DNA of 63,841 nt, the filler included, from Kipferlia bialata (taxonomy: Eukaryota), in the NCBI GenBank assembly GCA_003568945.1. It is 6 parts of 6 records of this genome, joined end to end, with 100 filler letters (N's around TTAATTAATTAA, not from the genome) between each part and the next. Parts side by side here need not be neighbours in the genome. Positions count along the whole stretch, not along the records: positions 13,794 to 27,366 come from BDIP01000916.1; 5 more parts are not named here. One strand, given 5' to 3'. A program made the translations under genes and the position numbers. A model generated the notes under the pieces. It was not told the origin of the DNA. It searched no databases and worked only from the letters and a program-made list of their open reading frames with translations. This document shows, piece after piece, positions 2,185-61,620 of this stretch (position 1 is its first letter; each line of letters opens with the position of its first letter).

Positions 2185-3597
2185 GCTGTTAAGGCCCAGA
2201 CGCAGTTTGACAAGTACACCCCATCTGACACTGAGGAGGTGCAGAGGCTGATAGAGAGAGCAAGGTACCATATATATATATATATATATACTAATGTATA
2301 TGTAGCATATATAGGTACACCCCATCTGACACTGAGAAGGTGCAGAGGCTGATAGAGTGAGCAAGGTACCATATATATATGTATATATATATATATATAT
2401 ATATCACTTGGTTGTGTGCATAGGGGTGGTTGATGTGTACATATGCCGTGTATATATGGTATATTATATCCCTGTGGTGTGACATATGTATAATCATATA
2501 CCATCATATATCAGGTCCTTTGATGTCTCCCACTTTGAAGTGTGTATAAGGACACAAATGTATATATTCTACATTAATACCACATATCCTCTCACGTTAG
2601 GGCCTTTGACCCCTCCCACCTTACTGTGTGCATGGGGGTAGTGGACACATGTGTCCCCCTTGCTAAGCGTGTGATAGAGGGCAAGGCCAGGGTGGAGAGG
2701 TTCCTCAAGGAGCACTCGAGTGGCAAGGTTGGTATACACACACCCTCATATATATATGAGTACATTTTTGTACACTATATACACTATATCTCTATTTCAA
2801 TAGAGGTTCCTCAAGGAGCACTCAAGAGATAAGGTTAGCTCATAGTAGTATATATGTATGTATTGTGTATTTGTTACACATATACTTAATCATAATGATT
2901 CGTAATTTTGGTGATATGCTCTGTCAATGATACATCTCACCTAAAGTTGTTGTCCAGGACTGTACTTCTATACTCCCCTCTCTCTATATGTGTATACCTA
3001 TATATATATATGTATATATGTATACAGAGACATGCGTTTCTAAACATCTCTCACTCTAGGTTGTTGCCCAAGACTGTGCCTTTGTCCTCCCATCGTATAT
3101 ACACTGGTGTAAACACATATATGTAGGAGTATATATATGTGTGTGTGCGTGTATGGGTATCTATATTTCTAACCCTACGGTTGTTGCCCAGGACTGTGCC
3201 TCTGTCCTTCCCTCTCTAGTCACTCTACACAGAGAGTTCAAGGACATGTACACCCATATGACTGCATCTATGGGGGCAGAGCCCACCCTACAGGAGAGTG
3301 AGGATGCTCTGCAGCAGGCAGTGGAGCTGAAGGAAGGTATATCCAATACTTATGGTCTCTACACCTGATACTCTATCATTACTGGAGACCATTACTATGC
3401 TATAGATATGTCACCTGATTTATGCATTACAAGTCCTACCAGCACTGACCCCAGACATATCCCGATGCTTCACCATCTTTCCTTTGTACGCTGTACTTAG
3501 AGTACTCATGAATTATTGATGAATATATTTATACATATATATGTAACATTACATCATAGTGTATATAGTACTTACCCCAGCCCTATCACGGTGTTTC

Positions 3598-8368: not shown

Positions 8369-11300
8369 CACATACATATGTATCTATAATTTCCATGACT
8401 CTAGGCCCCCTCCCGTGGCATTGAGTCTGACCTCCGCAGTGTCAGGACAGTGATGGCTGGACTGTTAATGGGAATGGGTTAGTACCTATAGTATATATGT
8501 ATATATATATATATATATATACATATCCACCTCTGCAGTGTCAGGACAGTGATGGCAGGGCTACTCATGGGGATAGGTATGCATATACTATATATGTATA
8601 TATACACACACACATATATATATATATGTATATATCCCATCCACCTCCGCAGTGTCAGGACAGTTATGGCTGGACTGTTAATGGGGACAGGTAACTGGGG
8701 TGTAATGTATACACACTTCATACATGCATTATTTCTTCCGGTACCTAGGCTCTAACCCCCCAGACACTGCCTCTGCCAGTCCCACCCAGAGTCACATGGA
8801 TGAGCTAGGTACATAGAGTGCTTTGAGACGACAACCTGGATGATATCTATATGTCTATCTTTTGTATCAATGTATTGATAGTATTATTGTAACTCTATCA
8901 TCATGAGCTTAACAAATGCTACGCTCATGCTACAACACTACTGCATTACATACTCTCTCTCTCTCTCTTTCTACTCAACAATACTCTTGTACATCTTATC
9001 TCATATATTAGGCTCCTTCATGCTCCAGCACTGCATCTACCACATGTGATATACATATATATATATTAGATGTGTATTAATGTGTATATATAGAACACTA
9101 CTATACTCTTCTACATCTTTATCTCATATATTAGGCTCCTTCATGCTGCAGCACTGCATCTACCATGACAACTTGGATGCATACAACGCAGGGTTCATAG
9201 GTTTGATACTTGCATATATATACTAATATATATGCATGTACGTGGGGTTCATAGGTATCTATCGCAGTGAGACCCCTGGTGCCTCTCTCTCTCTATATAT
9301 ATATAGGATATGTCTAATGAGTGTTTGCTGGACAGTGGATACATCACGACAACCTGGATGCATACAACGCAGGGTTCATACGTAATGTGCATACAGTATT
9401 ATTTGCAGCTGCATAGTTATGTATGTACTATCTCTCAGAGTCTGGTACTGGTGTCCCTCTCCCCTTTTGTGTTAATTTACATACATGTGTGGAGTGCTGA
9501 TGCGTGCAATAACCCCAGCCCTTTCCGAGTCTGGTACTGGTGCCCCTCTCTCCCTGTCACTCACTGCACCCAATGGCCAGATGTACACACCACCCCCATT
9601 CCCCATAGCGGCTACGAGGTATGATGCTTCATATATATAGTGTTAAGACACAATTCACTGTATCTTGTCTTCACTAGTATTGAGTCTTCCCATTGTGTAA
9701 ATTGTCATTCTTCTCTTTCCTTACATCCTTTTGCAACTTTCTATCTGGCACTCTTTCGAGCATGACCTGTGTCACTGTCTCACTTACTATTCTATGGTTA
9801 TGTAATGTATTTAGATACATATCCACTTAACCCAGGCAATTCTTCGAGCATGACCTTGATGTGTTTCGTCTCTCTCTCTCTCTCTCTCTCTGCATCCTAT
9901 ATATTCTGATTACAGACACTTCTTCGAGCATGACCTTGGTCTGTATCACTCTCCCGTTACTATATGTATATGTATATATATATATATGTATATATGTATA
10001 TATATATATCCACTGACTTGCAGACACTTCTTCGAGCATGACCTTGGTCTGTACCGTGAGAGGTCCATGGACATGAGAGTACAACGGATGGACATGTACA
10101 CACAGGGACTAGGTATGTATACAGGGTATTATATATATATATGATATATAATATATCTATATACTAGATAGTATATGCTATATTCTATGGTCCATGGACA
10201 TGAGGGTACAACGGATGGACATGTACAGTCAGGGATTAGGTATACTATATAACTACACATACATATCTATCTATGTATGTGTACAGTATATCTGAATATC
10301 TATCAATATATGCATACTATTAACTCCCCAGGCACCCATGCCCACCTAGCACTACAGGATACCCATCTGGCCAGTATATATATATGTACATATGAATACA
10401 TAACATATATGCATTGATAGTATCTCACTCTACAGGCACCCATGCCCACCTAGCATTGCAGGATGCCCATCTGGCCAGTGTCATGGGGGTGTCCATGTAC
10501 AATGCACGAGGAGTGGCAGCATTCCAAGCAGCAGGTACATATTACATATATATACTATTCTATAGACTATATATACTATGTATATCTGGCCATATGTATA
10601 CGTGTATATACCCTAACCCTAGGCCTGTCTCTTGGTGCCTCCCTCGGCTACTCCCTCCCTGACCCCCTGAGGGCACTGTTCAGACTGGACACAGTCACGC
10701 CGGGTGTGTATTTGTATATATGCATATACGGGAATACATATATATATATAGAGAGAGAGAGTATCAACTGGGGGCACTGTTCAGACTGGACACAGTGGGT
10801 ATGCTATTATATCTATGTGAGTGTATTCATATATAGTGACTGTTATTATTCAATCATGTATTGTTGTACTCAGGGCACTGTTCAGACTGGACAGGGTGAC
10901 ACCAGGTGTGTATTTGTATATAGTAATATATAGTTACTAGTTCATGGTTGACACTGACTCTCAGCATTAGAGGACGTCTCTCCTCCATGCTGCGCTCACT
11001 CCCTCTCATACACATATATACACATATATACACATATATACTCATATATACATATTCCATATTCTCACTCTCAGCCCTAGTAGATGTCTGCCTATCCTCC
11101 ATGCTGCGGTCTGACCCTGTGATATCCCTATATATATATATATATATATAATCGTATATGGATACCCACTATTGTACATAACTAACCTGCAGCCCTAGTA
11201 GACGTCTGCCTATCCTCCATGCTTAGGTCTGACCCTGGCCTGTCTAAGTCCCTGGTGGACATGGCCACAAGGGGACCAAAGGGGACAAGGGTGAGTGACG

Positions 11301-12203
11301 AGTATCAGTATGTAGCTATTATTCTAAGTGGGGGAGGTAGAGGGTGTTTTGGTGGGTGTATATGTGTGCTTGTACTATTTGCATGGACTCTATACTCTAT
11401 ACTCTATACTCTCTACTCTCTACTCTCTACTCTATCTGTCTCGTCACACGTTTATACGTATGTCTCTCGTAGGCTTAGCGCTCACTCTCAGACATCTATT
11501 CCCCCCCGTCTGTCCTCCCTGCTGTCCCTACTCTCATTTATACTCTGCAGTTATATATATATGTATATAGCATATATATATGTATGTTTCTACTCATTAC
11601 CAGACCTCTATCCCTCCACGTCTGTCCTCCCTGCTGTCCCTCCTTGCGTACTCTGCTGTTGGGGTGCAGGGGGAGAGAGACGGAGAGGATATGCGGGCTG
11701 TGTCTGTGGGTCTTGATGGCAGGTATGCTTGTATTGAGAATACCTTCGGTATTGTCTCTACTTAGTGGTTAACCCTTCTATGGTCGTTTCTTACCCTAGC
11801 ACCTCTGCCACTCTATCCCTGTGCAGCCCCTGTATATTTTCATATTCTTATATTTATTAATGTATATATCAGTATTACATGAACCCTTATCCCAGGGCTT
11901 CTGCCACCCTGTCCCTGTGCAGCCCCCACGGCTCTGCCTACTCTCTCTCTCCCTCTCTCTACTCAGTACTTATCACCCAGCGCTTCTGCCACCCTGTCCC
12001 TGTGCAGCCCCCACGGCTCTGCATACCCTGCTGACTCTGCTGCTGTCTCAGCCCTGGATAGACTAGGACTGCTGGTGCAGTGTATCAGAATGAGGTATAG
12101 TAAATATATATATATATATATATATACTAGGCATATGTATACTTGCTGTGTCTGCTCTAGACAGACTGGGGTTACTGGTGCAGTGGATAAGGATGAGGTA
12201 TAG

Positions 12204-12234
<31 letters not shown>

Positions 12235-12391
12235 TATGCATATGCATACTTGATGTGTCTGCTCTTGATATACTGGGTCGTACAGTGTATCAGGATGAGG
12301 TATATATAAACATGTGTTCTAAATATACTCTGAATATATACATCGACTTACCATATCCTGCTGTGTCTTTACTGGAGTGTATCAGATCTGT

Positions 12392-12436
<45 letters not shown>

Positions 12437-13649
12437 ATACCAGGTGGACCACCTCCTTTTTGTACAACTCTCTCTCTCTCTATATATATATAAATATATA
12501 TACTCCTGATGTCAGATGGACCACCTCCCCCCACTCCTCTGAGTGTGACAACAAGTATATCCGTTCATCTCTCTCTCTCTAATATATTAATAACTCTCTA
12601 ATGTATCAATTGACTCTTCATTTAACCATAAGGTGGACCACCTCCCCCCACTCCTCCGAGTGTGACGCCTGGTGTGCCCAGATACTGGCACACCCACTAG
12701 GACAGGCACTGGAGATGGATGGATACTCAGTAGGGTTAGTATATATATATATATATATCTATAGTATATGTGTCTATGATATATATATATATACTGACAC
12801 ACCCACTGGGACAGGCACTGGAGATGGATGCATACAGTGTTGGGTATGTGTATATACACAGTATTATTTGAACACTCAGATGTCAGCTCTATCCATAGAC
12901 ACATCCCTATGCACTCTGGTATCTATATCTGTTATATGTATTTATACACTCACCCCAGCTCCATCCTCTACACCCTCCTTCACTCCGGTCTGCCCCCCTC
13001 TGTCATTGAGACAACAATACTATATATATGTATATGCGTAAACGTATATATATACTATACTCACCCCAGCTCCATCCTCTACACCCTTCTGCACTCCGGT
13101 CTGCCCCCCTCAGTGTTTGAGACACCCATATACTAGTATATACATGTATACTATATACTATATACTCATACCAGCTCTATCCTCTACACCCTCCTGCACT
13201 CTGGCCTCCCCCCCTCTGTGATTGAGACTGCACTGCTCTGTGCACTGGGGGACACTATACAGGACATGCAGTACATGGACACTATCAGGAGGTATATATT
13301 TGTATGTATACTTGTATAGTAATTATATTATAATCTATAGTGTATATACTATGTGCACTGGGGGACAGTGTGCATGATATGCAGTACATGGACACAATCA
13401 GGAGGTATGGTATATATTATATATATGTATATTGATACAGTGTATAGTGTATACTGTTGTATATATGAACTATGCACTAGGGGGTGTGCATGATATTCAG
13501 TGTATGGACACAATCAGACTGTATAACAGTGATGTGTTTATTGTGTATAATGTACTCAATATCAGGTATACGTCACACTATATACCTTCTAACATCCCAG
13601 GACCCCAGACGGTGCCCTGCTGATCAGGTTCATACAGGCACACCCAGAG
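6652..13649 (+). CDS. Large multi-exon hypothetical protein (partial at both ends)
   Basis: About 20 short exons with GT/AG borders between TA/CT microsatellite introns, e.g. LDLCTQLRSDCHTHLALLTMHRL, GTHAHLALQDAHLASVMGVSMYNARGVAAFQAA, WTTSPHSSECDAWCAQILAHPLGQALEMDG. Family not recognised. Confidence 0.55.
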
Positions 13650-13693
13650 GTATATATATAGTATATAGTATAGTATACACATAACAAAACAAA

Positions 13694-13793
13694 NNNNNNN
13701 NNNNNNNNNNNNNNNNNNNNNNNNNNNNNNNNNNNNNTTAATTAATTAANNNNNNNNNNNNNNNNNNNNNNNNNNNNNNNNNNNNNNNNNNNN
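13694..13793. other. Artificial contig linker (N-run/TTAATTAATTAA/N-run)
   Basis: An identical 100-nt spacer with stops in all six frames recurs five times in the window. Confidence 0.97.
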
Positions 13794-13794
13794 C

Positions 13795-13861
13795 GCGCTT
13801 GATGTAGAGAGTGACACCCTGACAAGTGACTGACCCAGCTGGTCAGCTGTCAAAACTAAAT
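13795..13861 (+). repeat. Left terminal inverted repeat (67 bp)
   Basis: GCGCTTGATGTAGAGAGTGACACCCTGACAAGTGACTGACCCAGCTGGTCAGCTGTCAAAACTAAAT is the reverse complement of 27299-27365 with one mismatch. A further shared block CCTTTTTAGCATATT lies at 13885-13899. Confidence 0.95.
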
Positions 13862-14157
13862 TGCTTAAGCAGATCGAGTCAGAACCTTTTTAGCATATTA
13901 TGTCACGAGAATTAGTTCTATTTCAGACTTTGACCTTACTCTCTCCATGGCCAACAGATCCATGACAGTCAGCATCTGGCTAGTTTCGGTTGGCAGCTCA
14001 GATTTATGGGTAGATCGGTTTCTATATGGACTGCTGCAACGAGGAATGACCACTGTAGAGAGGGGGCCTCCTTCTACTGTTGATACCTATTGAGGGTGGA
14101 CTGAATGCCATCTTACTGCTTCTCTACCCCTAGAGCATTCGTTCTCAAGCCCAAGCA

Positions 14158-17100
14158 ATGGGTAAGAACGACCTCAAGCCGAAGAAATGGTTTGCCATGG
14201 GAGACCTCTCATCTGGGCCCCCTGAACCTATTCGATTGGTCCACTTTCTCTTTGCTGTCGATGCGACAAGGTACAATATGTATACTTCCGTTATTTTCAA
14301 TAACGATTACATGCGCGATTTCGGTATGGATCAGAAGGTAGTGACCTGTGTGGATTCAGATAATTTGTCTAATTGTACCAGATGGGATGTCAGGTATGTA
14401 GATGTATCCCCCCCCCCACCAAATGCCAATACCAGGTCAGACAGTATGACGGTCCACTTCCATCCCAAGTGGGGAGATGCATACAGGGTCACCAAGCTGG
14501 CACGGTATGTGAATTTAGTACGATACTGATACCAGTCTGGCTACCTCATTTTGAGATTAGACCCTAACCTTGCAGGTATGCCAGAGTGGATATTGTCCAT
14601 CTTTGCATGCCTACGACCCTAACTATGGGCAAGTGGTCCTTCAAGGTGACCTCCCCGTTTATGTGTCGTTATTCAGCAATGTCACTACCGCGTCAGTTAC
14701 TGACCCCCCCCCCCCTCCCCATCAGATATGTATCTAACCACAGTGCAAGCTCAAGGGAAAGAAGTTCTCAACACAAGACTGGGAGAGAGACCAGGGCATG
14801 CCAGTCATGAGTCACGAGTCCAAGTATCCTGACAGGTATATCACGAGGCTGCTCTTGTGTATACAATATTGAGTACCTGGTGTCTATCCGTCTCACTGCA
14901 GGTACATGTGCCTTTCCAGCGGTGACATATATCTAGGGTCCGTGTTGCACTCAACATTCTGTCCTGGACGCCACATTGGTATTCCCAATGAGCGTGTGGC
15001 TGCTCTTGTGGCGACAGCTCTCAGGTGAGCTGAAACACTCTTCTGAGTCCCATCTTCTCTCAACTGACCTCTTACTCAGGTGGTTTTCAGATAGACCCGG
15101 CCTCCTTCCCTGTATACAGAGCCTCTGCCAGATGAATGGCAGCTTTCAGTGTCCCTGCAGCCGGCCTCTGTTCTCCCCACCACCCCCTGGCATCAAGACA
15201 CACTACTCTCTGTCTGACGCCCTTGCTCTCGTTCAGTCCCTGGACACTCCCCTCTCTGAAGTGGGGGACGCATGTCTGTACCTGGGCTTTGACATCGCTG
15301 ACCTCTTTGCGGCACCGTGGCTCCCTGTGTGTCAGAGAGGCGCTGCACGGGGTCTGGATAGCCGGAAGGGCATTGCAGGTCTGCAGAAGGTGTCTCTGGC
15401 CGGGTTGAAACTGTATCTCGCTGTTGTGAGGCAGAGGGTGGGGTCGAAGATGCGGATGTTGGAGGATGTCCACCGGATGCTGACACTTCCAAGAGAGGGG
15501 AAGCTGCCTCCAGCGCTGGCCACCCAGTTTGGTGTCCTGGTGGCTGCAAGTCACCCTAGTGGGCGCCAGGAGCTCTCCCAGCTACGCTCACTTATTGGTA
15601 TTGTTCCTTCTGCCTTTTGGAACCCGTTGATGAAGGTGTGGTGTCTCTATTACAGATATGTCTCTCTTAGCACACTATGACTCACATCTGCCCCTTACAT
15701 CACTGGCCTCACCTTAGCAATGGAGTACGCCCAGGGGCATGGCTACGGGGCTATCCTTTGTGGCAGGCCTCCCCTCCGACCACCCATCTGAGTGTGCTAC
15801 CATCCTGGACGCAGCAGAAGCACATGGCCTCTACAGCTCGGGCTGGCCCCTGCATGAGGTCCTCCATAAGCGGGCACTCTGGGAGGGAGGGGATGGAGTG
15901 CTGCTGAACAGAATTGATTCAGTAAAGCAACTGCGTGTATTGAAGGAGAGGGTGCCTCTGAGGGTTGTGACTGGATGCGATCTGGAGGATTGTTGCATCG
16001 ACGGCCCTGTGGAAGGTCTCCTTACCTCCCTTGGGCTTGTTGATAGTCTCCCTGCCTTCGAGGCGGCTTTCCACTGTCTTACCAAGAGTCAGAATCTCCT
16101 TCACATACTCCAGGAGCAGCATCGTCACATGGCAGTTGTAGGCGGTGTGTTCACAGACGTTCTTGGGCAGTGTGTGGACCTGGTTATGAGGAAGTTAAGG
16201 ATGGCGCTTCTTACAACGGTCATTGACATACCCGGCCTATTGGAGGGCAGTGATACTGGGGATGTGATTATTATTGGCCAGTGGGTGCAGTCCACGCTGT
16301 TTCACCACTTCGTCTCCCACTCAGATCTCAGTGGCATTGGAGTGGTAGTGTCAGATACTGAATCTGACACTGAGTATGTACCCGATGACAGTGGAGTGGA
16401 GACACCAGACACTGATTACAGCACTTCAGACCCTATGATCGTGGAGTCGGGTATGACCGATACACTCTCTACCCACTCAGAGAGTGCCTCTGATGATAGA
16501 GCCATGACGCATGTCATTGACCTCCGGCCTGTCTTAACAGTCTCAGATCTCGTGACTGTGGCACACGCTGTCCAGGACATTGACAGGGCAATCAGAGCCC
16601 GCAGTATCGAGCCCTCAGCTGCCACTCTACTTGCAGCAGTGCCTCTTCCAGTTCTTGAGCGCCACATCGAGGAGGTGATTGGCAAGAACCAAACAGGCCA
16701 GTATCTGGATACACTCATAGTGTACGTGCGTGTCATCACCGCCATTCCCCACCTCGAGTCCCTCTATCGACACATCACTGTCACTTTCCGGAGTGTGAGG
16801 AAGCCTCTCTCTCATTCTGTCCGCAAGACTATTGACAGGGTCATGCAACAAGTTGGGAGGGTGGGTTGTGGCACAGCTCATCCTGACAAGCTCTGTACCC
16901 CTCTGGCCTCCGCGCTCTCTGCTCTCTGCCACACACCCCACTGTCTGTCCTTCTTCGAGTGTGCTGCAGGGGAGGCCAAGGAGGGTATGGCATTTGCAGC
17001 AAAGCAGGCCGACTCTACCGCCCACTTACTCAACCAACTCAGACACCGGGGCGCTGGGGTCCCTATTAGCGTCATATCAGGCTTCACATGGCTGATAGCT

Positions 17101-20100
17101 GATGCTTCCTCCCCCATGTTCATTCTGAAGGCCAAGAAGGTGACTCTGCTTGGGAAGCTCGGAGACCTTGCTCGTGTGGACTTTGCCAAGAGTGAGTTCC
17201 ATCTGCGCTCTGTCCACCAATACAGGCAGGGTCTGAGGCAGCTTATAGACGACAGTCACGGCACCAGTCAGAGAGGCCTGAACCACAAGGCAGACTACAT
17301 TCTCAGTCAGGGGTATGGATACATGTACCTCTGTGTTTTACCATTTTCTCATCAGTGTAATTGCCAATGCAAGTGATATCCTTTGACCCCCAAGGTTTCT
17401 CATGGTGCTGACGGGTGATGGTCCTAGTATCACCGTTGGTGACAGTGCAGCAGCCCAGAAATGGGACGTGCACGACGTCCTCTTACTCAAGAATCAGGTA
17501 CTATGCTACTGTGATTATTTCAGTATTCCGTGTTATCGGCAATGCCGACTCTGCATACATAGTATTCATCCCAGATCATCTTCAGTGCCAACGACGATCC
17601 GGCCCCAAGTCTTTTGGTCCTCCTGCTGAGTACGTATTGCTGTTATAGAGTACATGATAAGACCCACCACTTACATCCAGAGACCGCCCAGGACATTTGT
17701 GAGAAAGAGGCCGCAGTCCTAGTGTCTCTTACAGGACGTGAGGTGAGGAGAGAGGTCCGGTTCCCCGGGTGCGTAGATGCGGTGTCCTCCCGCGGTCTCA
17801 TGGTGGAGGAGTTGAAGGGGGTCCGACGGTCGATTCTGGAGGAGATAGAGAGACAGCGCCACGTGGCAGAGGCAAAGAGGCGAGACTCGGCCTGTGCATA
17901 CATGACAACACGAGACATCCTCTCCTGCGAGAGACGCCTCAACAGGCACATCCATCGACAGCACTTTGCTGACCCACGCTGCTTCTCAGTGTCTTCGCTT
18001 GCCACCCCTATCTCGCTCCGGTTTTCCGCAGTGACCTCTGTAATAGTGACTGAGGGTACTGTCCTGGATACCGTGCAGGCCCTGTGCCGGTCTGCCCCTA
18101 CTCCCATCATGAGTGTGAGGAACGTGCATCTAGGCAGCGGGGAGTCCACTGTTGAGGATATCCGGGCCCTTGTGGCCCATGCCTCTCTGTTCCCATCGGT
18201 GTGCCACGTGGTTGCCCTGCCTAGCCACATGCCCCAAGGGGTACAGGCAGAGATGCGGCAGTGCCTGCTGGGAGAGACCATCACCATGCCGAGGGAGTAT
18301 GGTCCCATTGTGCTCTGTGATGTTGCTGGGAGTACTGCATCCTCGTTCCCCAGGACTGTTGTGGATAGTGCATGTATGGAGGGGTTGGCTAAGGCAAAGG
18401 CGGCTGACTTGTTGGACGGCAGCCGCCTTCTGCTAACCAGCACTGATGCTGGTATGGGCAAGACTACTGAGGCCAGGAGACACCTGGGACCAGACTCACT
18501 GAGGCTGCACATCTCAGGTCCAGCCAAGTACTCCACTCTGTGCACTTCTCTGCTGACCCAGTTTGAGTCTCTTAAGAAGCCATATGACCTGCACATTGAC
18601 ATAGGGAGGCCTCTAGGCGATGGGCAGTATAGCCCAGGGCAGTGGGTGGCAGAGAGCGCTGTGTTCTCTCTCTGCTGGCTAGGGGGGCTGAGGGGGCAGG
18701 GGGCTATAGTACATGCCCCTTCTATAGTGGCAGTGGAGTTGGCCATTGGAGTGTCCAACCAGGTTGAGTCATACTCTGCCATTCTGGGGGTTGAGGCAAC
18801 CTTGGTGACCTTTCCAACCACGCAGACGCAGTTTCTGGAGGAATTCATACATGCCCCTGACCCTTCTGATGTGAGTGTAGTGAGTGAGGAGTCTAGGGAG
18901 GCCTACAAGGGTGCATGTGCACTATATGCACTTGCCAATTACCAAGACGTCCCAGACATTGATGAGACAAGCAGGACCGCCCGTGTTGACTCAGTACTAG
19001 CCCATGCATACAATGCTATTTGTGCCAGGACAGTTGGCATCTCTTGGGCTGCCTTCACTGCTGTTCTGCTCTCTCTCAAGACCAGTCTGGAGCGCATTGG
19101 CCGCTGCCCCCAGTTCTCAGACTTTGATGGGGACCAGTTACCCCTGGAGGCCAGGGCAGAGGTCATCGCCTTGACCAACCGCTATGCCAAGCAGTACGGC
19201 ATCGACGCCGTTGCCCAGACGGTCCAGTGCCAGAGGACTGTGATAGAGAACGGCACAAGACGCACCCCGACACAGGGAGAGACACCCAATGAGTGTAGAG
19301 TTGGTTACTCCAACCTACGGTGTCCCTATATCGTTCTGGACTCTGGAGACGCGCCAATTGCTTTCAGCAATTCTGCATTCCGGTGGCCTGCAGCATATGA
19401 GTCCTTACTCTCCAGGTGGCCTGGCCACAGACCCACCACGGAGAGACTGACCGCCTCACAGCTCAAGACGGCCGTGGCGGACTTCTGTCTAGGCCCTGCC
19501 GCTGCCGGTCGCTGCAGCAGGTTCCAGTCCAGTGTTGCCTCATATGAGTTCACTCCCGATGTGGCTCTGAAGATGTGTATGCTGCACACCAAGGTGTCGA
19601 CAGGACAGCCTGTGCTACTGACAGGGGATGGGGGCACTGGGAAGACAGCCTTGGTCACGTCGTATCTGGAGATGATGATGGCCCTTGCCCCAGAAGGCAC
19701 ATTTGGGTACACCACTGCCACTGTCAACGCATCTACCTCTGAAGAGACCATAGAGGGACTGTTCAGTGACATGAGTAGACACAGGGAGGGGGTGAGCAGA
19801 GATGTATTGTTCCTAGATGAGGTCAATGCCTCTCCCTTCAGCACAGAGATCATGGCAGGGGTATTGTCCAGACAGTTCAGAGGGCACCCGTTCCCTCCCT
19901 CCCTCAGCGTTGTGATGGCAGTCAACCCCCTACGTACATGTCACCAGGAGAATGCTATGCTCCACAGTATGAGACACACCGTGCCCTATGTGTTCAGAGT
20001 CAACCCCATCCCCGAGTCCATGCTCAGATGTCTCATAGACTTCGGCAGCCTAGCACTGGAGGTACGAAGTACGCGATGGTGAAAACAGTCTCCCGTTAGA

Positions 20101-23100
20101 AGTCTTATATTCAGGACGAGGTTAGATATGTCCTGCAGATACTTGGCACGGCTGAGGATAAGTATCCCTCTATTGGCATATCACAGGGTCTATTGGAGCG
20201 AGTTGTCAAAACCCACCATGCGGCCAAACAGGAGTCCCGAGGATACTCTTTCTCTGTGTCACTAAGGTACTTGTTGCTGAGTTTGTGTACTCTCTATGTG
20301 TCAGGCAAGTGTCACTGACCACCAGGGACATCAACAGGTTCGTGAGTCTCCTCCGGGTAGCAAGGGTTGTGTTTGCACCTATGATACAGGAGAGGCGGGC
20401 CACGGCTACCGACGTGGAGGCCTTTGTACTGCATCTCACCTATGTGCTCAGGATTCCAGATCCTGCTAGGAGGGTGGGTGTCCTCCAGCAGATTGGGCCC
20501 CAAGCTACGAGGAGTGTGTCTGTGTGTCAGAATGAGTGCATGGGGTGGCTAGACGAGGTGGCAGGAACGGGTGAGACATCAGACGTGACTGGTATGGTCA
20601 TTGCCAGAAACAGAGCATACTCAGAGAACGCTCCAGCACTTCTCATGTGTGTTTGGGCCAAGGTATGCGTGACGGCCGTTTGAGTATATGCCATACAATG
20701 AGTCTATTCCAATGTCAAACCCAGGTTCCTATCATCATCATTGGCGAGCCCGGCACCTCCAAATCCCTAGCACTAAGGGTGTGTTTTGAGTTCCTAGCCT
20801 CAGCCAAGAGCCACACTGTATACCCCACTAGGGTGGAGCAGACTGTGTATCAGGGCACCACCCAGAGCACTACAAGTGGTGTGGATAGTGTGTATCGGGA
20901 AGTGCTTGGTAACGTACCCGAGGTAGCATATGTACTAAGTTCTATTTGTATGTCAAGTGAGCAGTCTTAATGTCAGGATGGATCTAGTGCCCTCACGTCT
21001 TTGTTTGTCTTTGATGAACTGGGCCGTGCCGCCCAAGCACCTGGCAACCCACTCAAGTCGCTTCACTCCATCCTGGAACCCCATGGGGGTCAGGACAACC
21101 TGAAGTTTGCCTTCATCGGCCTGTCTAACCACAGCATAGACTCTGCACCCACTTCTAGAGCCCTAGTTGTGTATAGGTAAAGCCGTAATGGTGATTCCTA
21201 TGAATACCGCACGTATATGATGCCATAACAATAACTACCATACCTTACGTCAGACTTGGTACAAACGATGGGCTGGCCGCCACTGTCCGAGATATTCTGC
21301 GGCAGAGAGTGTCAAACCGGCAGGCGCATGCCCTTGCGGACGCCCATTGTGCCCTGTCTAGGAGTATGAATCATAGACTTGGAAGAGATGCGGGCAGATC
21401 GATATTCGGACTGAGGTGAGCTAGAACGTGCCACTGATTCACTAAAGATACTTCACCTATACCAACGTCAGAGACGTCTTCTTCCTGGCCCACAGGGCAC
21501 TGGCTGAGGGTGATGTTGGGGTGGATAATCCCCACAGTCGGGCAGCAACTCTGGTTGCCAGGTGCTACAGCATAGGGTATGCCCGGGAGAGGGGTCTGGC
21601 TTGTGAGAGGATGGTACGAGCTACCGAGAGCATACTGTCTACTCTCAATGAGGGACGCGACAAGGGTCTGTTTAGAGACATTGGTAGATTGTTGCGATGG
21701 GGGAAGGGAGCTGAGAGAGTGAAGATTGATCCTGTGATGTGTACTGGCTACCAAGCCATGCGAGACGCCTTGCTTGACACACACGAGTGCTCCAGGTACT
21801 GACTACTACACTAATGTACTACTGATTTGGTAACCACCATATTGGCTTATGCCAGGTATCTCTTGGTTCAGACGGAGTCCCCTGACCTTATTGTCGAGGC
21901 TATTCAGAGAGACGCTCGAGTGATGGGTGGGGATAGCAGAGGCATAGACGTTCTGAGTGGCTCCCAGTTTGAAGGAGACTCCGACATTGGAACCTCCATT
22001 GAGACTCTGTCTGCCCTAATAGAGGGGGCCAGAAGGGGAAGGTAAGGTCGAATATGGTTCAAGTGCCTATGTTAGCTCATTGCAGGGTTGTAGTGCTGGT
22101 GCATCAGCAAAAGGTGCTGGACTGTCTCTATGACATGCTGAATAAGAACTATGCCCGGTTTAGCCACGCTGGAGTAACCACCACGTGTTGCAGGTAGTTG
22201 AGTTACCATGAAGTTGTTTCAAGCTAAGAGCGTTCTATATATCCATTCAAATGACACCCAGAGTCTCACTCGGGAATTGTGCTGACAGTTTTGTCCCTGT
22301 GGCACCCAGTTTCAAGTTGGTGGTCTGCCTCTCTGCGGCAGAGGTGGCTGATGAGGAGCCCGCGCTGCTTCAGAGGCTGGAGAAGGTCCGGCTAGACATA
22401 CATGATATGGGGGAAGTTGCTGAGAGTGCAAAAGCCGAGCTGATGGAGGCCTCTACTCAAGAGGCACTAGCTGAGGTGCATGCCTGTGTGCATCGACTGG
22501 GTACGGTGTCTCAGATCACAGACGGTCTGCTCTGGTTGCACTCCTGTCAGGCCAGGGGAGAGAGCATCCTACCCTTAGCTGCTCACCTTGTTCCCCCTAT
22601 CCTGCTACTGTCCCACACTCTCAAGGAGACTGGCGGTTCTGCGGATGACACTCCAGAGTCGGCACTGCTGGACGGCTCTCTATTCCATGGCTGTATTGAC
22701 GTTTTGGACTTCCTGCAGATGCTCTTGAGGCACAAGGGAGCTCACATGAGTACCTGTTCCGATGTTCCTGTAGTACTGTACAAGACAAGTGGTTGTGGGA
22801 CGGGAGACTCCGTCGATGACCTCGTGTCTGCGGGGACTGAGGCTGGCATTTCCATCTCGCGATTGGTTGCCTCAGAGAACCGCACTGCTAGAGAATTCCA
22901 GACAGCGGTGGACAGTGTCCCCCATGAGTCAGTGATTGTGTGCAGTCTAGGGTCTAGAACAGAGTTTGTCCCACAGTGCCAGGCTGTACTTCGAAAGAGA
23001 GAGGGCCTGAGCGTCATCGCAGTGGATAACACCTCTGACACCAACTCCATATGTGTCGGAGTGACGTCTGGGGTATGTGCAGTGGACTGTCTAGTGAAGC

Positions 23101-26100
23101 CACAGTACCTGCCGGTATCCTTCAACCCCGAACCCGTGCTGACTCTCTCTGACACCCACACCTCTTCCTCAGACTTAGCGGACCAGCAACTGAGAACTCT
23201 TATCCAGCGCTGCCTGCAGAGGAGTCTCCACCAGGTACTGGCAGGACTCCACAGCCAACCGGGACAGGGTTTCAGTCAGTCGTCCGATAGGGCCCGGGAT
23301 CTGTCCCACTTTGTGTTCGTGCATCAGGATAAGATTGCCTCGCTGTGCGTACCCCATGCCCGGGGTGAGCTTCTCCGTGTGTATGGACATGGGTGTGTAT
23401 TGTCCGCTGTCGATATACAGGAGTATACCTCATTGGCAGAGGCCACGCAAGATGTGGTGATGTCATCTCTCTCTGAGTCCCTGGTTCCTGTTATAGGGCG
23501 TCTTGCCTACACTGGCCTCTTAGAAGGAGACCTGGACCCCGACCCCTCCTCTGCTGGTGCCCGGGAGTACGCAGAGGCTGTCATGGGAGAGATTGCTACG
23601 GTGGTTGACAGAGAAGGACAGGACGTCGTGATGAGGGACCCCAGTGATGAGTCACAGACAGTCGAGGAAATCAGGACGGCATTACATAACACTGACTTGC
23701 GGTACATCCTCGCCCCCCTGATACCCTGTGACCTGTCTACCACTCCCACCCTACTCATACACGCTGTGAGGACCACCCTGTGCCACAGTCTGGTGCTGCC
23801 TGACGACCTGAAGGGGGAGTCAGATGCTGTGGTGTGCTGTGTAGGCAAGGCCGTAGAGGTTCTCAGGGTGAACTATCAGCACTCCATATCAAGGGACACC
23901 CTACCAGTAATCACCAAGATTGTACTATGCCAGCTGTCCCTTGATAACCTCTCCGTGTCAACACAGGGACTACTGGGATCAGTTACTGTAGCCATGGAGT
24001 GTTTTGAGCAAGACACAGACGCCATTGAGTATGAGTGCCTCAGTCAGATGCTTGTGCGGGGTATAACCTACATGGGAAGTGAGTACTGCAGATTCGACAA
24101 TTCGAAGCCCTCTGGGGCACTAGCGCTCACAGGGGATCCCGATGAGCTACATTGTGCCGTGAGGGGGGTTCTGGGAGACGAGGCCACACCCAGCCAGACG
24201 ATAGCATTGATGCAAGTGGGACAGTATGATGACACCAGCTACATGAGTGTGTGCTCCATGACGCCTCCTACCACAGATGATACTCTAGCGTGTGAGGTAT
24301 TCACTGCCAGACTGTGTGGAGAGATTGGTCCCACATACCTGCTCTCCGACGACAGACAAGTTGACGCGGGCCTGGGTGTCATGATATCACACCATACTGA
24401 GCAGATGCTATCCCAAGACAACAGCCTATTCGTTGGACCTGGGTCGATAGGTGGCATCCTCACGCGTGTCACAGGTACTCTGCAGGGAGACACCCTGACA
24501 ATAGGGTGGTCGGTGGCTGCTGCTGTGCTGCGGCACTGTGCAAGGCAGGCCAGAGATGCCACAGGATGCGGGATGAGTCCTAAGGCCCTGTCTCTCCTGT
24601 TCAGCTGCAACCGGCTGTGTCAGCTGTCCTTCGTCTGGCACTATCGGCAGGGCAGAGAGGGGGAGACCGAGAGAGTTGAAAGGGGGGTTGCAGAGGTGCT
24701 GGGGAGACATGTGGCTGCTACCCTCTTCACTGGCAGCTATGCAGAGCGGTATCCTATGTCTGCCCTCGTCGACTGGGCCCTCCACTGCTTGCCAGCCTTT
24801 GGGGCAGAGGGTCCACCCTCAGCGTCTGCTAACAGACTGACCCTCTTCCGCAGACACCTAGTCAATGTGAGCAGTGGCAGTGCTGAGGGTGTACCAGGTG
24901 CAGTATACGCCATGCACAGACACATTGGTATGGGGGGTATGGCCCTGCTGGGTGAGGTGGCTGGGTGGAACCTACAGCCTGGTAGCCTTGTCCATGCTGT
25001 AGCCACAGACCCCGGTTCCTACCTCCTCCCCTTCGAGTGGCTCAATGCTGTGTACGCAGAGAACACATACAGCAGAAGCCATAGTGATGATACTGGGAAG
25101 AGGACCAGGGTGAGACGCTGCGGAGGGTGTGGTCTTGTGGTCTTCATTGGCAACTGTGGGGAGCATGACCACACTGCTCAGGCTGGGGGGTACGGGTATG
25201 CCAACTGCCCAAAGTGCAAGCGTGCTCTTACGGAGTCCCGCACCAAATCTGTTGATATGGACCGGCAGCCTAGAACAACGGTGTCAAGATCCAGTGTGTT
25301 CTACAAAGACGGGGTACAGATGGGGTTTGTATATGACGCCGATACGGTGCCTCCTTGCGAGGGTACCTTCCCATTCACATCGCACATGAGAACATCGCCC
25401 CGGGAGACTGTGTTTGTAAGGTGTGTATTGGCGGCCCTTCATCTCCAGCGGATAGTTGAATCAAATAGTGTTAGCACCCTCTCTCTGGACCTCCGAAAGA
25501 CTCTGGTTGATAGGGTGAACCAAGGGGTGAAGAAGTTTGGAGACCGTCTGCTGTCCTTGGTTCGCCGGACCGCCCCCACCATACAGGAAGTGCATGCTGC
25601 GTCGGATGTATGTGCCAGGTATCGGCAGGAGGTGGATCTGATCAAGAGGCTGCAACTGTCAGCCAGAACTCCGGCCGTGGTCCCACCCTCCGGTGCTTCG
25701 CATGCCCCTGTATTCCCCCTAACCCCCTCTCAAGCTGTGGAGTCCGGCCAAAGAGAGGACTTCATACGCCTCTTAGCCCCTCAGGAACCTGGAGATCTCA
25801 GACTAGGCGAGGGGTACGTGGCCCACATAGGGGGAGAGACTATGGCTACAACACAGCAGGCAGAGGCATGGTGCGGGGGCCTCGCTGTGCTTCCACAGGT
25901 CCTGTCTCTCCCAAGGACGGTGCTGAGACCACTGCAGTTCATCGGTTCGGGATGTGACACCTCGCTCCTGGACCAACCACTCACGACAGTCCTAGAGAGC
26001 CTTAGGGTCGATATGACTGCGGTAGAGGATGCATTTGAGGCATGGAATGTTGTATCGAGGTCCTTCTCTGAGTTTCAGCACCAGCTAGTCATTAACTGCT

Positions 26101-27131
26101 CCACCTCTGTGGACATACCTGTGATTGTATGGCAAGATGTGACCCTGGGTCAGTTCCTCGCCTTACAAGAGGATATCACCCTTCCAGCCAGAGCACAAGG
26201 ATATGAGGGGGAGGCTGTGTCAATGGGCACTGTTCTCATGAAGCTGATACAGCAGTACAATGCTATATGCCAGTCCATCCTCCAGGAACTTGGTGTGGAG
26301 GGGGTTAACCTGCACAGAGTCAGTGCGTCTGCATTCTCCCAGCGCAACCTGCCCCCTACCCTAGATGTGCAGACTGTGGAGCCTGTGGCGGCACTCTCCC
26401 ATGATGCTGCCCAGCTGCTCTCTGGGGTCAGGGTACTCTCGGGTATGCCTGCTCTTGTACTGATAGACGAAGACCCCACCCCTCTGGAGATGCACAAGAT
26501 ACAGCCACGAGGATGCCTACAGTGGGTCCAGGACTATGAAGAGGGAGTGGTAGGGGATATGTCACGCCCTGTTCCACCTCTACCGAGTGAGACTGTGCAG
26601 ACTATCTCTGACATGCCCCGGAACACCATAAGTAGGACTGTGGGTGCCTGTGCTGCGGCCCAGGATGCTGTGTCTACACTAGCTCGTGTTGAGGATGCAA
26701 CTACACCTCTGAGAGAGTTTCTGGACAGGTGGGGAGTGACACCGCACGTCAGTGTGCTGGCTGAGTATGATCTCGTCGGTATAGAGGTGCGGCAGGTGCT
26801 GAGACTGGCCTCTGCCCTCCAGGCTAGACTAGACTGGGATGACATAGTGGATAGGGTGCAGGGGGAGGTGCCTCTGGAGCACTGGACTCTGACCAAGGCT
26901 CAGAGACAGAGACTAAGGCGCATGTCACAGACAGACACAGCATGTCTTGGGCACTTGGTCAAGGTGCTGTCCTTCAGGGTGGATCAGACGGAGAGGCACA
27001 ACCCTGCAATGACATCTCTGTACTGTACGGCATATGAAGAGGACGAGGGGGGAGAGGCCGTGTGTAGGGCTCTGGATACTCTATCATTCATGTCACTGGT
27101 GGCATACTTTGTCAAGGAGTCACATCACTGA
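14158..27131 (+). CDS. RNF213-like: RNF213/mysterin-like giant AAA+ ATPase with RZ-finger E3 module (~4000 aa, multi-exon; exact start uncertain)
   Basis: Collinear RNF213 motifs: STDAGMGKT (cf. SERAGVGKS), YEFTPDVALKM..PVLLTGDGGTGKT (cf. YELTTDNMLKI..PVIIMGETGCGKT), LFLDEVN, AVNPLR, YVFRVNPIPESM..DFGSL, IARNRAYSEN..VPIIIIGEPGTSKS, FDELGRA..NPLKSLHSILE, FIGLSN, FGLRD, SRYLLV, GSQFEGD, LYDMLNKNY, PALLQRLEK. RZ-like CGGCG.VVFIGNCG..CPKC at 25119-25217. Stop at 27129-27131. Confidence 0.93.
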
Positions 27132-27298
27132 GTGTGGAGGGAGATCTGATTGCAGAGTCTCACGTGCATTGATCTGCAGGAGATACCGATAATAGAGAAG
27201 ATGATTTTCGTCTATTATGATGAAGTGGTGATGTCCTGCACAATATGCTAAAAAGGCTCCATTCATTATATGATTAAGCTTAGAAAACTGTTTTAGTG

Positions 27299-39902: not shown

Positions 39903-41093
39903 TCACTGTGACAGTGGCGACCCCGGGGCCAGCGCCATCCCCTGTGTCAGCTTCGCCAGTGCCTGTGCCACCACAGAGTTGTCTCTGGCAGGCCTCTCAC
40001 TGATACCCGCCTGTCTGCAGAGACGTGTCCTGGCCCTCTTGTCCCTCAGCCTGGCAATGGGTGTGAGGGTTGGTGTGATGATACCCGACCTCTGTCTGTC
40101 CAGTAGGGTCATGGTCACCCTGCTCTCATTGACAGCTGATGCAATGGCGTCACTCTCATCCCTCCACCGCACCCTCTCCTCCTCCACCTTGGCAGGGTGG
40201 GAGGCCAGGAAGGCTGCGTCGGGGGGGGTCTGCAGCGCCCACCCCTTGCCGGTCACCTTCTTCAGCAGGGGGGAGAAGAGAGACCGAACCAGGTGGGGGG
40301 GGAGACCGGTCTGGTCTGTGAAGCTGCGCCTGGACACGTATGTAGATGTGGCTAGGAGCAGGAGGAGGTAGTCTCTGAAGGGTACGAGAGACTCCTCGAC
40401 TGCGTCCCTGGACCTCTGCACCCACACCCCATTGACAAGCCTGGCCAGGTCCGACAGGTGCTTCAGCAGCTCCGACTCCTTGACCCTCCCTGCCGCCCGG
40501 CAGATCATCGAGTACTGCATGATGGGCTTCTTCTTGAGCAGGTGCCCCACAAGGTCCCTAGGGGGTAGGCGTCTGATGAGCTCGAGGGACAGGGCCCCCG
40601 AGGAGTGTGTCTGGGCTGGAGCCGTGGCAGAGGGGGCAGAGGGGGGCTCGGGGAAGAGCTGGTTCACATACTGCACAGCCGGCTGGTCGAAGTTGATGGC
40701 GTCTCCCTTGCAGGAGAGGAGGCGGTGCAGCTGCATGGTGGACTCCCTGGGATAAGGGGGGGGGGGGAATAGATATAGATGCACATATACACACACACCT
40801 GCTGCCCTCTGGGTAATACTTCATATCCACGCTCTCTCCCTTCTGCACCTCGACTGGCCCGTGGTGCCTAGAGTGAGACAGGGAAGGGGGGGGAGGTGTA
40901 TATATATCCATGCATCCCATCATGGAATAGACTCTACCTCGCATTGGCCGGGGCCTGACAGAATGCGTCGATGTCTGACTGTCTGTCCACTGTGTTGGTG
41001 TAGCTGTGGCTGGGCCTCACACTCACCACACTGCTGACTGGGGTCAGGTGCAGGGCATTGCCCCCAGACAGCAGTCCCACGGCCATGGTCGAC
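39903..41093 (-). CDS. POLR3E: RNA polymerase III subunit RPC5/C37 (Sin-like), 5' end missing
   Basis: LHLTPV, SLELIRRLP..LLKKKPIMQY, ARLVNGVWVQRS, RDYLL, KGWALQTPPDAAFLASHP..W parallel POLR3E (MAQLRTLP, AMLVQGNWVVKS, RDFVM, KGWEFILPYDGEFIKKHP). Confidence 0.82.
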
Positions 41094-41148: not shown

Positions 41149-41248
41149 NNNNNNNNNNNNNNNNNNNNNNNNNNNNNNNNNNNNNNNNNNNNTTAATTAA
41201 TTAANNNNNNNNNNNNNNNNNNNNNNNNNNNNNNNNNNNNNNNNNNNN
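41149..41248. other. Artificial contig linker
   Basis: N-run/TTAATTAATTAA/N-run. Confidence 0.97.
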
Positions 41249-54923: not shown

Positions 54924-55023
54924 NNNNNNNNNNNNNNNNNNNNNNNNNNNNNNNNNNNNNNNNNNNNTTAATTAATTAANNNNNNNNNNNNNNNNNNNNN
55001 NNNNNNNNNNNNNNNNNNNNNNN
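54924..55023. other. Artificial contig linker
   Basis: N-run/TTAATTAATTAA/N-run. Confidence 0.97.
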
Positions 55024-61520: not shown

Positions 61521-61620
61521 NNNNNNNNNNNNNNNNNNNNNNNNNNNNNNNNNNNNNNNNNNNNTTAATTAATTAANNNNNNNNNNNNNNNNNNNNNNNN
61601 NNNNNNNNNNNNNNNNNNNN
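61521..61620. other. Artificial contig linker
   Basis: N-run/TTAATTAATTAA/N-run. Confidence 0.97.

What the first reader, a model, noticed from the sequence alone, without database searches (positions are those of the whole stretch)
25119..25217. Variant RZ finger (CxxC in place of CxxxH) in a RING-less RNF213 homolog
Seen: RRCGGCGLVVFIGNCGEHDHTAQAGGYGYANCPKC, and no C3HC4 RING anywhere in the 1626-aa terminal exon. Known: the RNF213/ZNFX1 RZ consensus is C-x3-H...G(E/N)CG...CxxC. The GxCG cysteine is the transthiolating active site and supports RING-independent LPS ubiquitylation. Inference: the catalytic Cys is kept, the His zinc ligand is replaced by Cys, and a loop is inserted. This would be an RZ-only E3 in a lineage far from animals.
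Basis: partly seen in the sequence, partly recalled or inferred. Interest (0 to 1): 0.72.

Follow-up and report, generated by a model that had tools for sequence, protein, structure and literature searches.

The report
Four-cysteine RZ finger in protist RNF213
A spliced gene of a single-celled flagellate encodes a RING-less relative of the human immune ubiquitin ligase RNF213 whose zinc finger keeps the catalytic-position cysteine and likely binds zinc with four cysteines, a form common in non-vertebrate relatives, but lacks the usual helper histidine, so ligase activity is likely but untested.

Summary
25119-25217 encodes CGGC-x8-C-x16-CPKC inside a 19-exon, 3,897-aa RNF213 homolog (source label Kipferlia bialata; PDB RNF213 E 4e-28). 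Transcript-like contigs show 15 of its 18 introns spliced. The spliced protein has no RING pattern. The motif is an RZ finger by position, profile match and flanking anchors. The scan noted both before on other DNA (Naegleria, fungi). IGG is missing only from the 4 fornicate fingers of the 40. In two Kipferlia paralogs a His sits five residues after the catalytic Cys and might replace the base. Most likely an ATP-gated, RING-independent transthiolating ligase; activity, zinc binding and any LPS substrate are untested. New variant of a known kind, moderate interest.

The parts
14158..27131 (+). RNF213-like gene, 19 exons, 3,897 aa (P0007; source label KIPB_004330, Kipferlia bialata). Fills one 13,573-base contig between N linkers.
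   Evidence: 15 of 18 introns shown as GT..AG joints in run X2; in-frame stop upstream of the ATG
19624..19647 (+). AAA3 Walker A (residues 1574-1581), intact
   Evidence: Alignment to human RNF213
19810..19821 (+). AAA3 Walker B (FLDE), intact
20743..20766 (+). AAA4 Walker A (residues 1889-1896), intact
21010..21018 (+). AAA4 Walker B (FDE), intact
22262..27131 (+). Terminal exon (residues 2276-3897): end of the AAA ring and the whole E3-module region; no RING pattern
   Evidence: one contig of run X2 covers 22259-27195 without gap
25023..25040 (+). Upstream anchor (LLPFEW), at the place of Chilomastix FIPTMW and vertebrate FLPTMP
   Evidence: By eye on alignment A7
25119..25130 (+). First zinc knuckle Cys3228-x-x-Cys3231, where vertebrates have C-x3-H
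25155..25157 (+). Cys3240, equivalent of the catalytic Cys (mouse C4462, human C4516)
   Evidence: Invariant in alignments A2 (25 rows) and A4 (41 rows), whose non-Kipferlia rows were chosen for having it; kept in all three Kipferlia paralogs
25158..25205 (+). Lengthened loop, 16 residues against 8 in 34 of 40 fingers; low model confidence
25170..25172 (+). His3245, five residues after the catalytic Cys; candidate relocated general base (inference)
   Evidence: Kept in paralog P0008, not in P0009; no His in the loop of Chilomastix P0010
25206..25217 (+). Second zinc knuckle Cys3257-x-x-Cys3260
25218..25247 (+). Stretch where other RZ fingers have IGG-x-x-x-H with the general-base His; both absent here
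25317..25328 (+). Downstream anchor (QMGF), aligned with vertebrate QTGH; the Gly is invariant
26541..27128 (+). Probable diverged C-terminal (E2-docking) domain; weak support
   Evidence: HHalign E 0.007 over 83-84 columns, the only one of 16 blocks above background; HMM search negative

Best explanation
The motif is the RZ finger of a spliced, RING-less RNF213 homolog; it likely binds one zinc through four cysteines and likely still accepts ubiquitin from an E2 on Cys3240, without the histidine base that mammals place after the last knuckle. Shown: the gene, its splicing, intact AAA3 and AAA4 Walker motifs, no RING pattern, homology and position of the finger, loss of the IGG-x-x-x-H element, the longer loop. 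Inferred from mouse RNF213: Cys3228/3231/3257/3260 hold zinc; ATP binding at AAA3/AAA4 gates activity; E2~ubiquitin docks on the C-terminal domain and transfers ubiquitin to Cys3240, which passes it to a substrate. Inferred more weakly: discharge is slower than in mammals or uses another base, such as His3245 in the longer loop. The substrate is unknown; bacterial lipid is a guess by analogy.
For: RNF213 is the only PDB family matched by P0007 at E up to 0.1 (9 of 9 rows, best 4e-28). Finger lies 669 residues from the C-terminus against 701 in bats. Profile-profile match of three Kipferlia fingers to 15 non-fornicate fingers: probability 92.8, E 4e-7. The three Atlas rows shown are all ZnF_RZ-type clusters (best score 0.89, a lead only). 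Two models put beta-strands round the knuckles with pLDDT about 60-80, and weak fold matches are rubredoxin or zinc-ribbon chains. The catalytic-position Cys is kept in all 5 fornicate fingers found (P0007-P0010, P0014), although P0010 and P0014 are only 13-16% identical to the query over these regions. Of 49 Cys in the terminal exon 14 are kept in all three Kipferlia paralogs, 4 of them in this finger. Mouse H4483A lowers activity about tenfold but does not abolish it, and the RING is dispensable (PMC12075652, passages). 9 non-fornicate fingers also keep the Cys without that His. Foldseek ranks mouse RNF213 (7OIK) first for the 839-residue model, though not significantly (E 1.3).
Against: No activity or metal data. 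The His of the published Cys/His dyad is absent. Pfam ZnF_RZ-type does not hit P0007 even at E 10; paralog P0008 scores 11.1 bits against a cut-off of 27. Both models are low confidence overall (mean pLDDT 52 and 57) and the catalytic loop is under 50; no fold search matched the RZ domain of RNF213. The E2-docking domain is barely detectable: HMM negative, Atlas blank, no Trp at the place of mouse W5097. Many RNF213 homologs have lost the catalytic Cys or the whole finger, including Chilomastix P0015, so non-catalytic members exist.
Confidence: 0.6

Rival explanations
1. The finger is a real RZ homolog but catalytically dead or nearly so: a structural zinc ribbon on an ATPase scaffold, with Cys3240 kept for folding or redox reasons.
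For: General-base His and IGG hairpin absent; E2-docking domain hardly recognisable; 25 of 65 parsed RZ-like fingers lack the catalytic Cys; paralog P0009 has drifted (first ligand His, no Gly after the Cys); P0015 has no finger.
Against: Homologs that lost activity in this sample lost the Cys itself; here the G-x-C-G motif is kept in P0007 and P0008 and A-N-C-G in two Chilomastix proteins. The His mutant of mouse RNF213 keeps residual activity.
Confidence: 0.27
2. The finger is active only together with a RING-type partner supplied by another gene, so the protein is not a self-sufficient RZ-only ligase.
For: Earlier notes of this scan report a RING-like/UBL/TerD gene beside RING-less RNF213 in other lineages (unchecked here). 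The C-terminal domain is diverged.
Against: Mammalian RNF213 works without its RING. No neighbour can be examined: the gene fills its contig and no genome is held.
Confidence: 0.08
3. The motif is an unrelated zinc ribbon that replaced the RZ finger at the same place.
For: No Pfam RZ hit; best Pfam rows are generic zinc ribbons below cut-off; fold matches are generic.
Against: Spacing from second ligand to catalytic Cys, G-x-C-G, both flanking anchors and distance from the C-terminus all match RZ fingers; Chilomastix fingers bridge the gap (probability 95-96 to either side); P0014 keeps the canonical C-x3-H knuckle with the same long loop.
Confidence: 0.05

Closest known systems
Mammalian RNF213 (mysterin); PDB 6TAX, 7OIK, 8S24, 9G08, 9JW1
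   Same: AAA3-AAA6 region aligns over about 780 residues (E 4e-28) with intact AAA3 and AAA4 Walker motifs; RZ finger about 670-700 residues from the C-terminus with the catalytic-position Cys; both flanking anchors.
   Different: 1,300 residues shorter than human; no RING; AAA4-to-RZ distance 1,339 against 1,720; ligand set CCCC against CHCC; loop 16 against 8; no IGG-x-x-x-H; C-terminal domain and CBM20 not clearly detectable.
RZ finger (Pfam PF20173 ZnF_RZ-type) of RNF213 and ZNFX1: C4505/H4509/C4525/C4528 metal site, C4516/H4537 catalytic pair (PMC11549300, PMC12075652, passages)
   Same: Two knuckles, beta-hairpin, G-x-C-G nucleophile loop with the same spacing from the strand.
   Different: Cys for the His ligand with a two-residue knuckle; general-base His absent; below Pfam detection.
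Non-vertebrate RNF213 homologs with all-Cys RZ fingers (Glomus, Rhizophagus, Gigaspora, bdelloid rotifers, unnamed metagenome proteins)
   Same: No RING pattern; CCCC ligand set (21 of 40 fingers); 7 of the named ones also lack the His.
   Different: They have CxC or CxxxC first knuckles, keep IGG or IGA, and nearly all keep the 8-residue loop.
Fornicate paralogs and orthologs: Kipferlia P0008, P0009; Chilomastix P0010, P0014, P0015
   Same: Long loop (15-26 residues), no IGG, no His after the last knuckle; one clade in a quick tree (long-branch warning).
   Different: First knuckle varies: CxxC here, CxC (P0008, P0010), HxC (P0009), CxxxH (P0014); P0015 has no finger.

Membership tests
RNF213 family | Dynein-like AAA core homologous to RNF213 | tested here: met
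   phmmer against PDB: 9 of 9 hits are RNF213, residues 1546-2329, E 4e-28. AAA1/AAA2 were not separately aligned.
RNF213 family | Walker A and B intact in AAA3 and AAA4 | tested here: met
RNF213 family | RING domain in the E3 module (vertebrate form) | tested here: not met
   No RING pattern or Pfam RING in the spliced protein; present in only 3 of 122 homologs, all vertebrate, so it defines the vertebrate form only
RNF213 family | C-terminal E2-docking domain (mouse F5093, W5097, D5101, Y5106, E5108; PMC12075652 section 10) | tested here: inconclusive
   HHalign E 0.007, above 15 control blocks and a reversed control; Tyr and Glu align, Trp does not; HMM negative; Foldseek 7OIK rank 1 at E 1.3
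RNF213 family | N-terminal CBM20 domain | tested here: inconclusive
   A by-eye resemblance at residues 80-115; profile tests with 4 seed sequences gave nothing; no Pfam hit
RZ finger (PF20173) | Homology and position: between E3 core anchors, about 700 residues from the C-terminus | tested here: met
RZ finger (PF20173) | Score above the Pfam gathering cut-off | tested here: not met
   No hit for P0007 or its excised finger at E up to 10
RZ finger (PF20173) | Four metal ligands in two knuckles | tested here: met
   CxxC and CxxC; sequence only
RZ finger (PF20173) | Published CHCC ligand set (His as second ligand) | tested here: not met
   CCCC here; CHCC in only 4 of 40 sampled fingers
RZ finger (PF20173) | Catalytic Cys in G-x-C-G | tested here: met
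   Cys3240
RZ finger (PF20173) | General-base His 9 residues after the last ligand (mouse H4483, human H4537) | tested here: not met
   No His and no IGG after CPKC
RZ finger (PF20173) | RZ fold (helix plus two beta-hairpins round one zinc) | tested here: inconclusive
   Models give strands at the knuckles, loop under pLDDT 50; only generic zinc-ribbon matches; coordinates not available for distances
RZ finger (PF20173) | Zinc binding and transthiolation from E2~ubiquitin; lipid A ubiquitylation | not testable with these tools
   Needs biochemistry

The most novel reading that the evidence does not exclude
Fornicate RNF213 homologs rebuilt the RZ active site: they lost the IGG-x-x-x-H hairpin and doubled or tripled the catalytic loop, and in Kipferlia a His five residues after the nucleophile (His3245) now serves as general base. 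This would be a third layout of a transthiolating zinc-finger active site, with nucleophile and base on one loop, in a RING-less ligase of an anaerobic bacterivorous flagellate.
Probability: 0.2. Interest if true: 0.62.

Novelty: new variant of a known kind. Interest (0 to 1): 0.38.

Why it matters
Published work defines the RZ finger from animals and calls its zinc ligands fully conserved (10.1101/2021.05.10.443411, passage). This gene and its relatives show the His ligand, the RING and the general-base His are all variable, while the nucleophilic Cys is what stays. A natural RING-less, His-less RNF213 that is 1,300 residues shorter than the human protein is a ready test of what the minimal ligase needs, and it places the family in fornicates, deep in eukaryotes. 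The first two points are general to non-vertebrate homologs, so this gene adds mainly the fornicate loop remodelling.

Tried and rejected
Phmmer of the 363-residue RZ region against 1.84 billion representatives gave only the two Kipferlia paralogs and one spurious repeat protein, P0013. The terminal exon alone, and the small alignment A1, matched nothing meaningful in PDB sequences; A1's fourth row was the wrong part of P0010 and is not used. Fold searches on the 363-residue model gave no RNF213 match: helical hairpins (Z up to 6.9) and weak rubredoxin-like rows. The second look for the 839-residue model could not align chains over 3,000 residues, which excludes RNF213. A finger-only model was not made: short queries aligned wrongly to whole proteins (A3, A5, A6). 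One search was circular (target inside the alignment) and is not used. C-terminal domain: HMM of 48 homologs found nothing in Kipferlia; Atlas blank. The 450 to 900 residues upstream of the finger gave no profile match to other homologs, so the place where a RING would sit could not be mapped. CBM20: not shown. Run search listed no holder on record as RNA; X2 is only guessed to be RNA, from its spliced joints. No genome is held, so E2 genes and further paralogs were not surveyed. Neighbouring genes were rejected as context because the window joins separate contigs. Considered and rejected: hidden intron or frameshift inside the finger; a RING in a skipped upstream exon (transcript joints agree with the model in 15 of 18 introns shown). 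No complex prediction was run: no ubiquitin or E2 of this organism was in hand.

Full report
1. Observation. The coordinates translate on the + strand to the quoted finger, Cys to Cys, inside the stop-free frame 22212-27131. A search with this region returned a 100% identical public model, P0007, 3,897 aa, labelled KIPB_004330 of Kipferlia bialata, and a paralog P0008. P0007 maps to 19 exons from 14158 to 27131. The gene fills one contig between N linkers, and no genome is held, so there is no usable neighbourhood. A DNA run (X1) and a run guessed to be RNA (X2), of one sample, were laid on 13800-27400: X2 skips GT..AG introns that X1 does not; the 15 joints shown match 15 of the 18 model introns, 4 more joints were not shown, and one X2 contig covers 22259-27195 with no gap or other letter. 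An in-frame stop lies just upstream of the start codon, so the protein is complete at its N-terminus. The terminal exon starts at 22262 (1,622 whole residues, not 1,626). Four RING patterns find nothing in the spliced protein, whose only two CxxC pairs are in this finger; Pfam finds only AAA families above noise.

2. What the protein is. Against PDB sequences P0007 hits RNF213 only (9 of 9 rows, best E 4e-28, residues 1546-2329). Walker A and B of AAA3 and AAA4 are intact. Three homolog searches gave 122 proteins over 2,600 aa, P0007 included: three Kipferlia paralogs, three Chilomastix proteins, one partial Aduncisulcus protein, Glomeromycota, rotifers, corals, a starfish, a ciliate, a dinoflagellate, three vertebrates and many unnamed ones. 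One search listed 120 of its 126 hits. The sample is biased by its fornicate seeds and holds clusters of close relatives, so the counts below describe it and not the family.

3. Is the motif an RZ finger? Pfam PF20173 does not hit P0007 or the excised finger; P0008 scores 11.1 bits, cut-off 27. A profile of 42 non-fornicate fingers gives one domain in P0007, at 3228-3276, 4.9 bits; the best of 300 shuffles scored 1.9 (69 gave any domain). HHalign of the three Kipferlia fingers against 15 non-fornicate ones gives probability 92.8, E 4e-7, and Chilomastix matches both sides at 95-96. The finger is 669 residues from the C-terminus (bats 701). The flanking anchors align, and the Gly of the downstream anchor is invariant in A4 and A7. 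The Atlas rows shown are all ZnF_RZ-type clusters, best score 0.89, which the tool calls a lead only. Two AlphaFold2 models (mean pLDDT 52 and 57) place strands round both knuckles at pLDDT about 60-80 and leave the loop under 50. Fold searches give generic zinc-ribbon rows for the finger and rank mouse RNF213 7OIK first of 350,542 chains for the 839-residue model, at a non-significant E of 1.3. I take RZ homology as about 0.93 likely, resting on sequence more than on structure.

4. How unusual is it? Of the 122 proteins, 53 had no RZ-like hit at 3 bits (P0009, whose finger was read by pattern, is among them), 4 could not be parsed, 25 had knuckles without the catalytic Cys and 40 kept it. Among the 40: ligand sets CCCC 21, CCCH 14, CHCC 4, CCDH 1; first knuckle CxC 16, CxxC 16, CxxxC 4, CxxxH 4. 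So Cys in place of the His ligand is the majority state (36 of 40). The other 15 CxxC fingers pair it with a His-ended second knuckle, so CxxC with CxxC is seen only here, a one-residue insertion relative to the CxC of paralog P0008. CxC fingers of Glomus and Rhizophagus already carry PF20173 and the name RZ-type domain-containing protein. A RING pattern occurs in 3 of 122, all vertebrates. In a quick tree of the AAA region (24 of 35 rows; 11 dropped because a motif search failed; long-branch warnings) the Kipferlia paralogs form a clade, and the CxxxH finger of Chilomastix P0014 is sister to the CxC finger of P0010, far from vertebrates, so the His/Cys state changed more than once. The tree has no root and does not give the ancestral state.

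5. In mouse RNF213 the nucleophile Cys4462 works with His4483, and H4483A lowers activity about tenfold (PMC12075652, passages); human numbers are C4516 and H4537 (PMC11549300, passages). That His follows an IGG motif after the last knuckle. Here neither exists. IGG is absent in 4 of 40 fingers, exactly the four fornicate ones; the His is absent in 13 of 40 (4 fornicate, 5 fungal, 2 rotifer, 2 unnamed). The loop between nucleophile and third ligand is 8 residues in 34 of 40, and 15-26 in the fornicates (16 here). P0007 and P0008 share a His five residues after the Cys; P0009 does not, and P0010 has no His in its loop. Since 19 of 50 His in this exon are kept in P0008 anyway, two sequences are thin support for a relocated base.

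6. Mechanism. From mouse RNF213 (PMC12075652, passages and section 10; PMC7311170, passages; 10.1101/2021.05.10.443411, passages): ATP binding at AAA3/AAA4 activates, E2 docks on the C-terminal domain, ubiquitin passes to the RZ Cys, and the RING is dispensable. For this protein the ATP sites, the Cys and four plausible ligands are shown in sequence. The docking domain is uncertain: the last block of the Kipferlia alignment is the only one of 16 to match the other homologs' C-terminal profile (E 0.007), Tyr and Glu of the docking helix align but Trp does not, and an HMM search fails. I put an active RZ-only transthiolating ligase at 0.6, a dead structural finger at 0.27, dependence on a separate RING partner at 0.08 and an unrelated ribbon at 0.05. 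The best argument for activity is that all five fornicate fingers keep the Cys in spite of deep divergence, while non-catalytic homologs lose it. Nothing here bears on LPS as substrate.

7. Literature and earlier notes. Searches: RNF213 with RZ finger and evolution, unicellular eukaryotes (32), H4537 and C4516 (49), Kipferlia (50, none), transthiolation (52), mysterin with fungi, amoeba or protist (68), Rhizophagus (72, none), Kipferlia with ubiquitin (73, listing only), RZ-type with ancestor (114). I saw no paper on fornicate RNF213 or on Cys-variant RZ fingers in these listings. The ZNFX1 preprint traces the RZ domain to choanoflagellates (10.1101/2025.10.14.682297, passage). Otten 2021 was not held and I opened no supplements; their alignments may show non-animal fingers. 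The scan's own notes already record RING-less RNF213 in Naegleria and fungi and the CxC variant as normal for a non-animal branch; I confirmed the latter independently. None was found for this genome or for the missing His in fornicates.

8. Verdict. Real feature, correctly identified as a variant RZ finger in a RING-less RNF213 homolog. The His-to-Cys swap and the missing RING are common outside vertebrates. The distinctive part is the fornicate loss of the base-His hairpin with a longer catalytic loop. New variant of a known kind; interest 0.38; most novel reading (relocated general base) probability 0.2, interest 0.62.

Noticed in passing
window 13694-13793, 27367-27466, 41149-41248, 54924-55023, 61521-61620: Paired runs of 44 N; the first pair surrounds a 12-base all-frame stop linker. 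The window is a string of separate contigs, so genes across these gaps are not true neighbours.
   Followed up: yes
window 9000-13693: An intron-rich gene region in which 35-85-base exon-like pieces recur as 2-4 degenerate tandem copies about 100 bases apart, between TA microsatellites (families D5, D7, D8, D10, D13, D17, D18). May be duplicated exon ends inside introns or alternative exons.
   Followed up: partly
proteins P0089, P0096, P0097, P0103, P0104, P0110, P0112, P0119-P0124, P0126 (unnamed): 14 RNF213 homologs have a swapped RZ ligand order, CxxC first and CxxxH second (CCCH), most keeping the catalytic Cys and the base His; P0128 has Asp as third ligand.
   Followed up: partly
proteins P0016, P0018, P0071, P0111 (Glomeromycota) and about 20 others: RZ-like fingers that keep the zinc knuckles but have lost the catalytic Cys: 25 of 65 parsed. 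Non-catalytic RNF213 paralogs look common.
   Followed up: partly
proteins P0023, P0028, P0032, P0042, P0050, P0064: Tyr stands where the general-base His is expected in four fungal and two rotifer fingers that keep the catalytic Cys.
   Followed up: no
protein P0015 (Chilomastix): Full-length RNF213 homolog with both RZ flanking anchors but no Cys or His knuckle between them.
   Followed up: partly
window 14134-14900 (P0007 residues about 25-125): N-terminal segment shared with P0008, P0009 and Aduncisulcus P0081 that resembles by eye the CBM20 signature of RNF213; profile tests did not confirm it.
   Followed up: partly
window 39903-40820 (-): RNA polymerase III subunit RPC5 match, E 6e-31.
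   Followed up: no
window 28318-31968 (+): Long exons of a large gene with only a weak DUF4470 match below cut-off (E 0.001).
   Followed up: no
protein P0075 (EukProt): RNF213 homolog listed with Pfam PF00644 (recalled as the PARP catalytic domain) and without an RZ hit.
   Followed up: no
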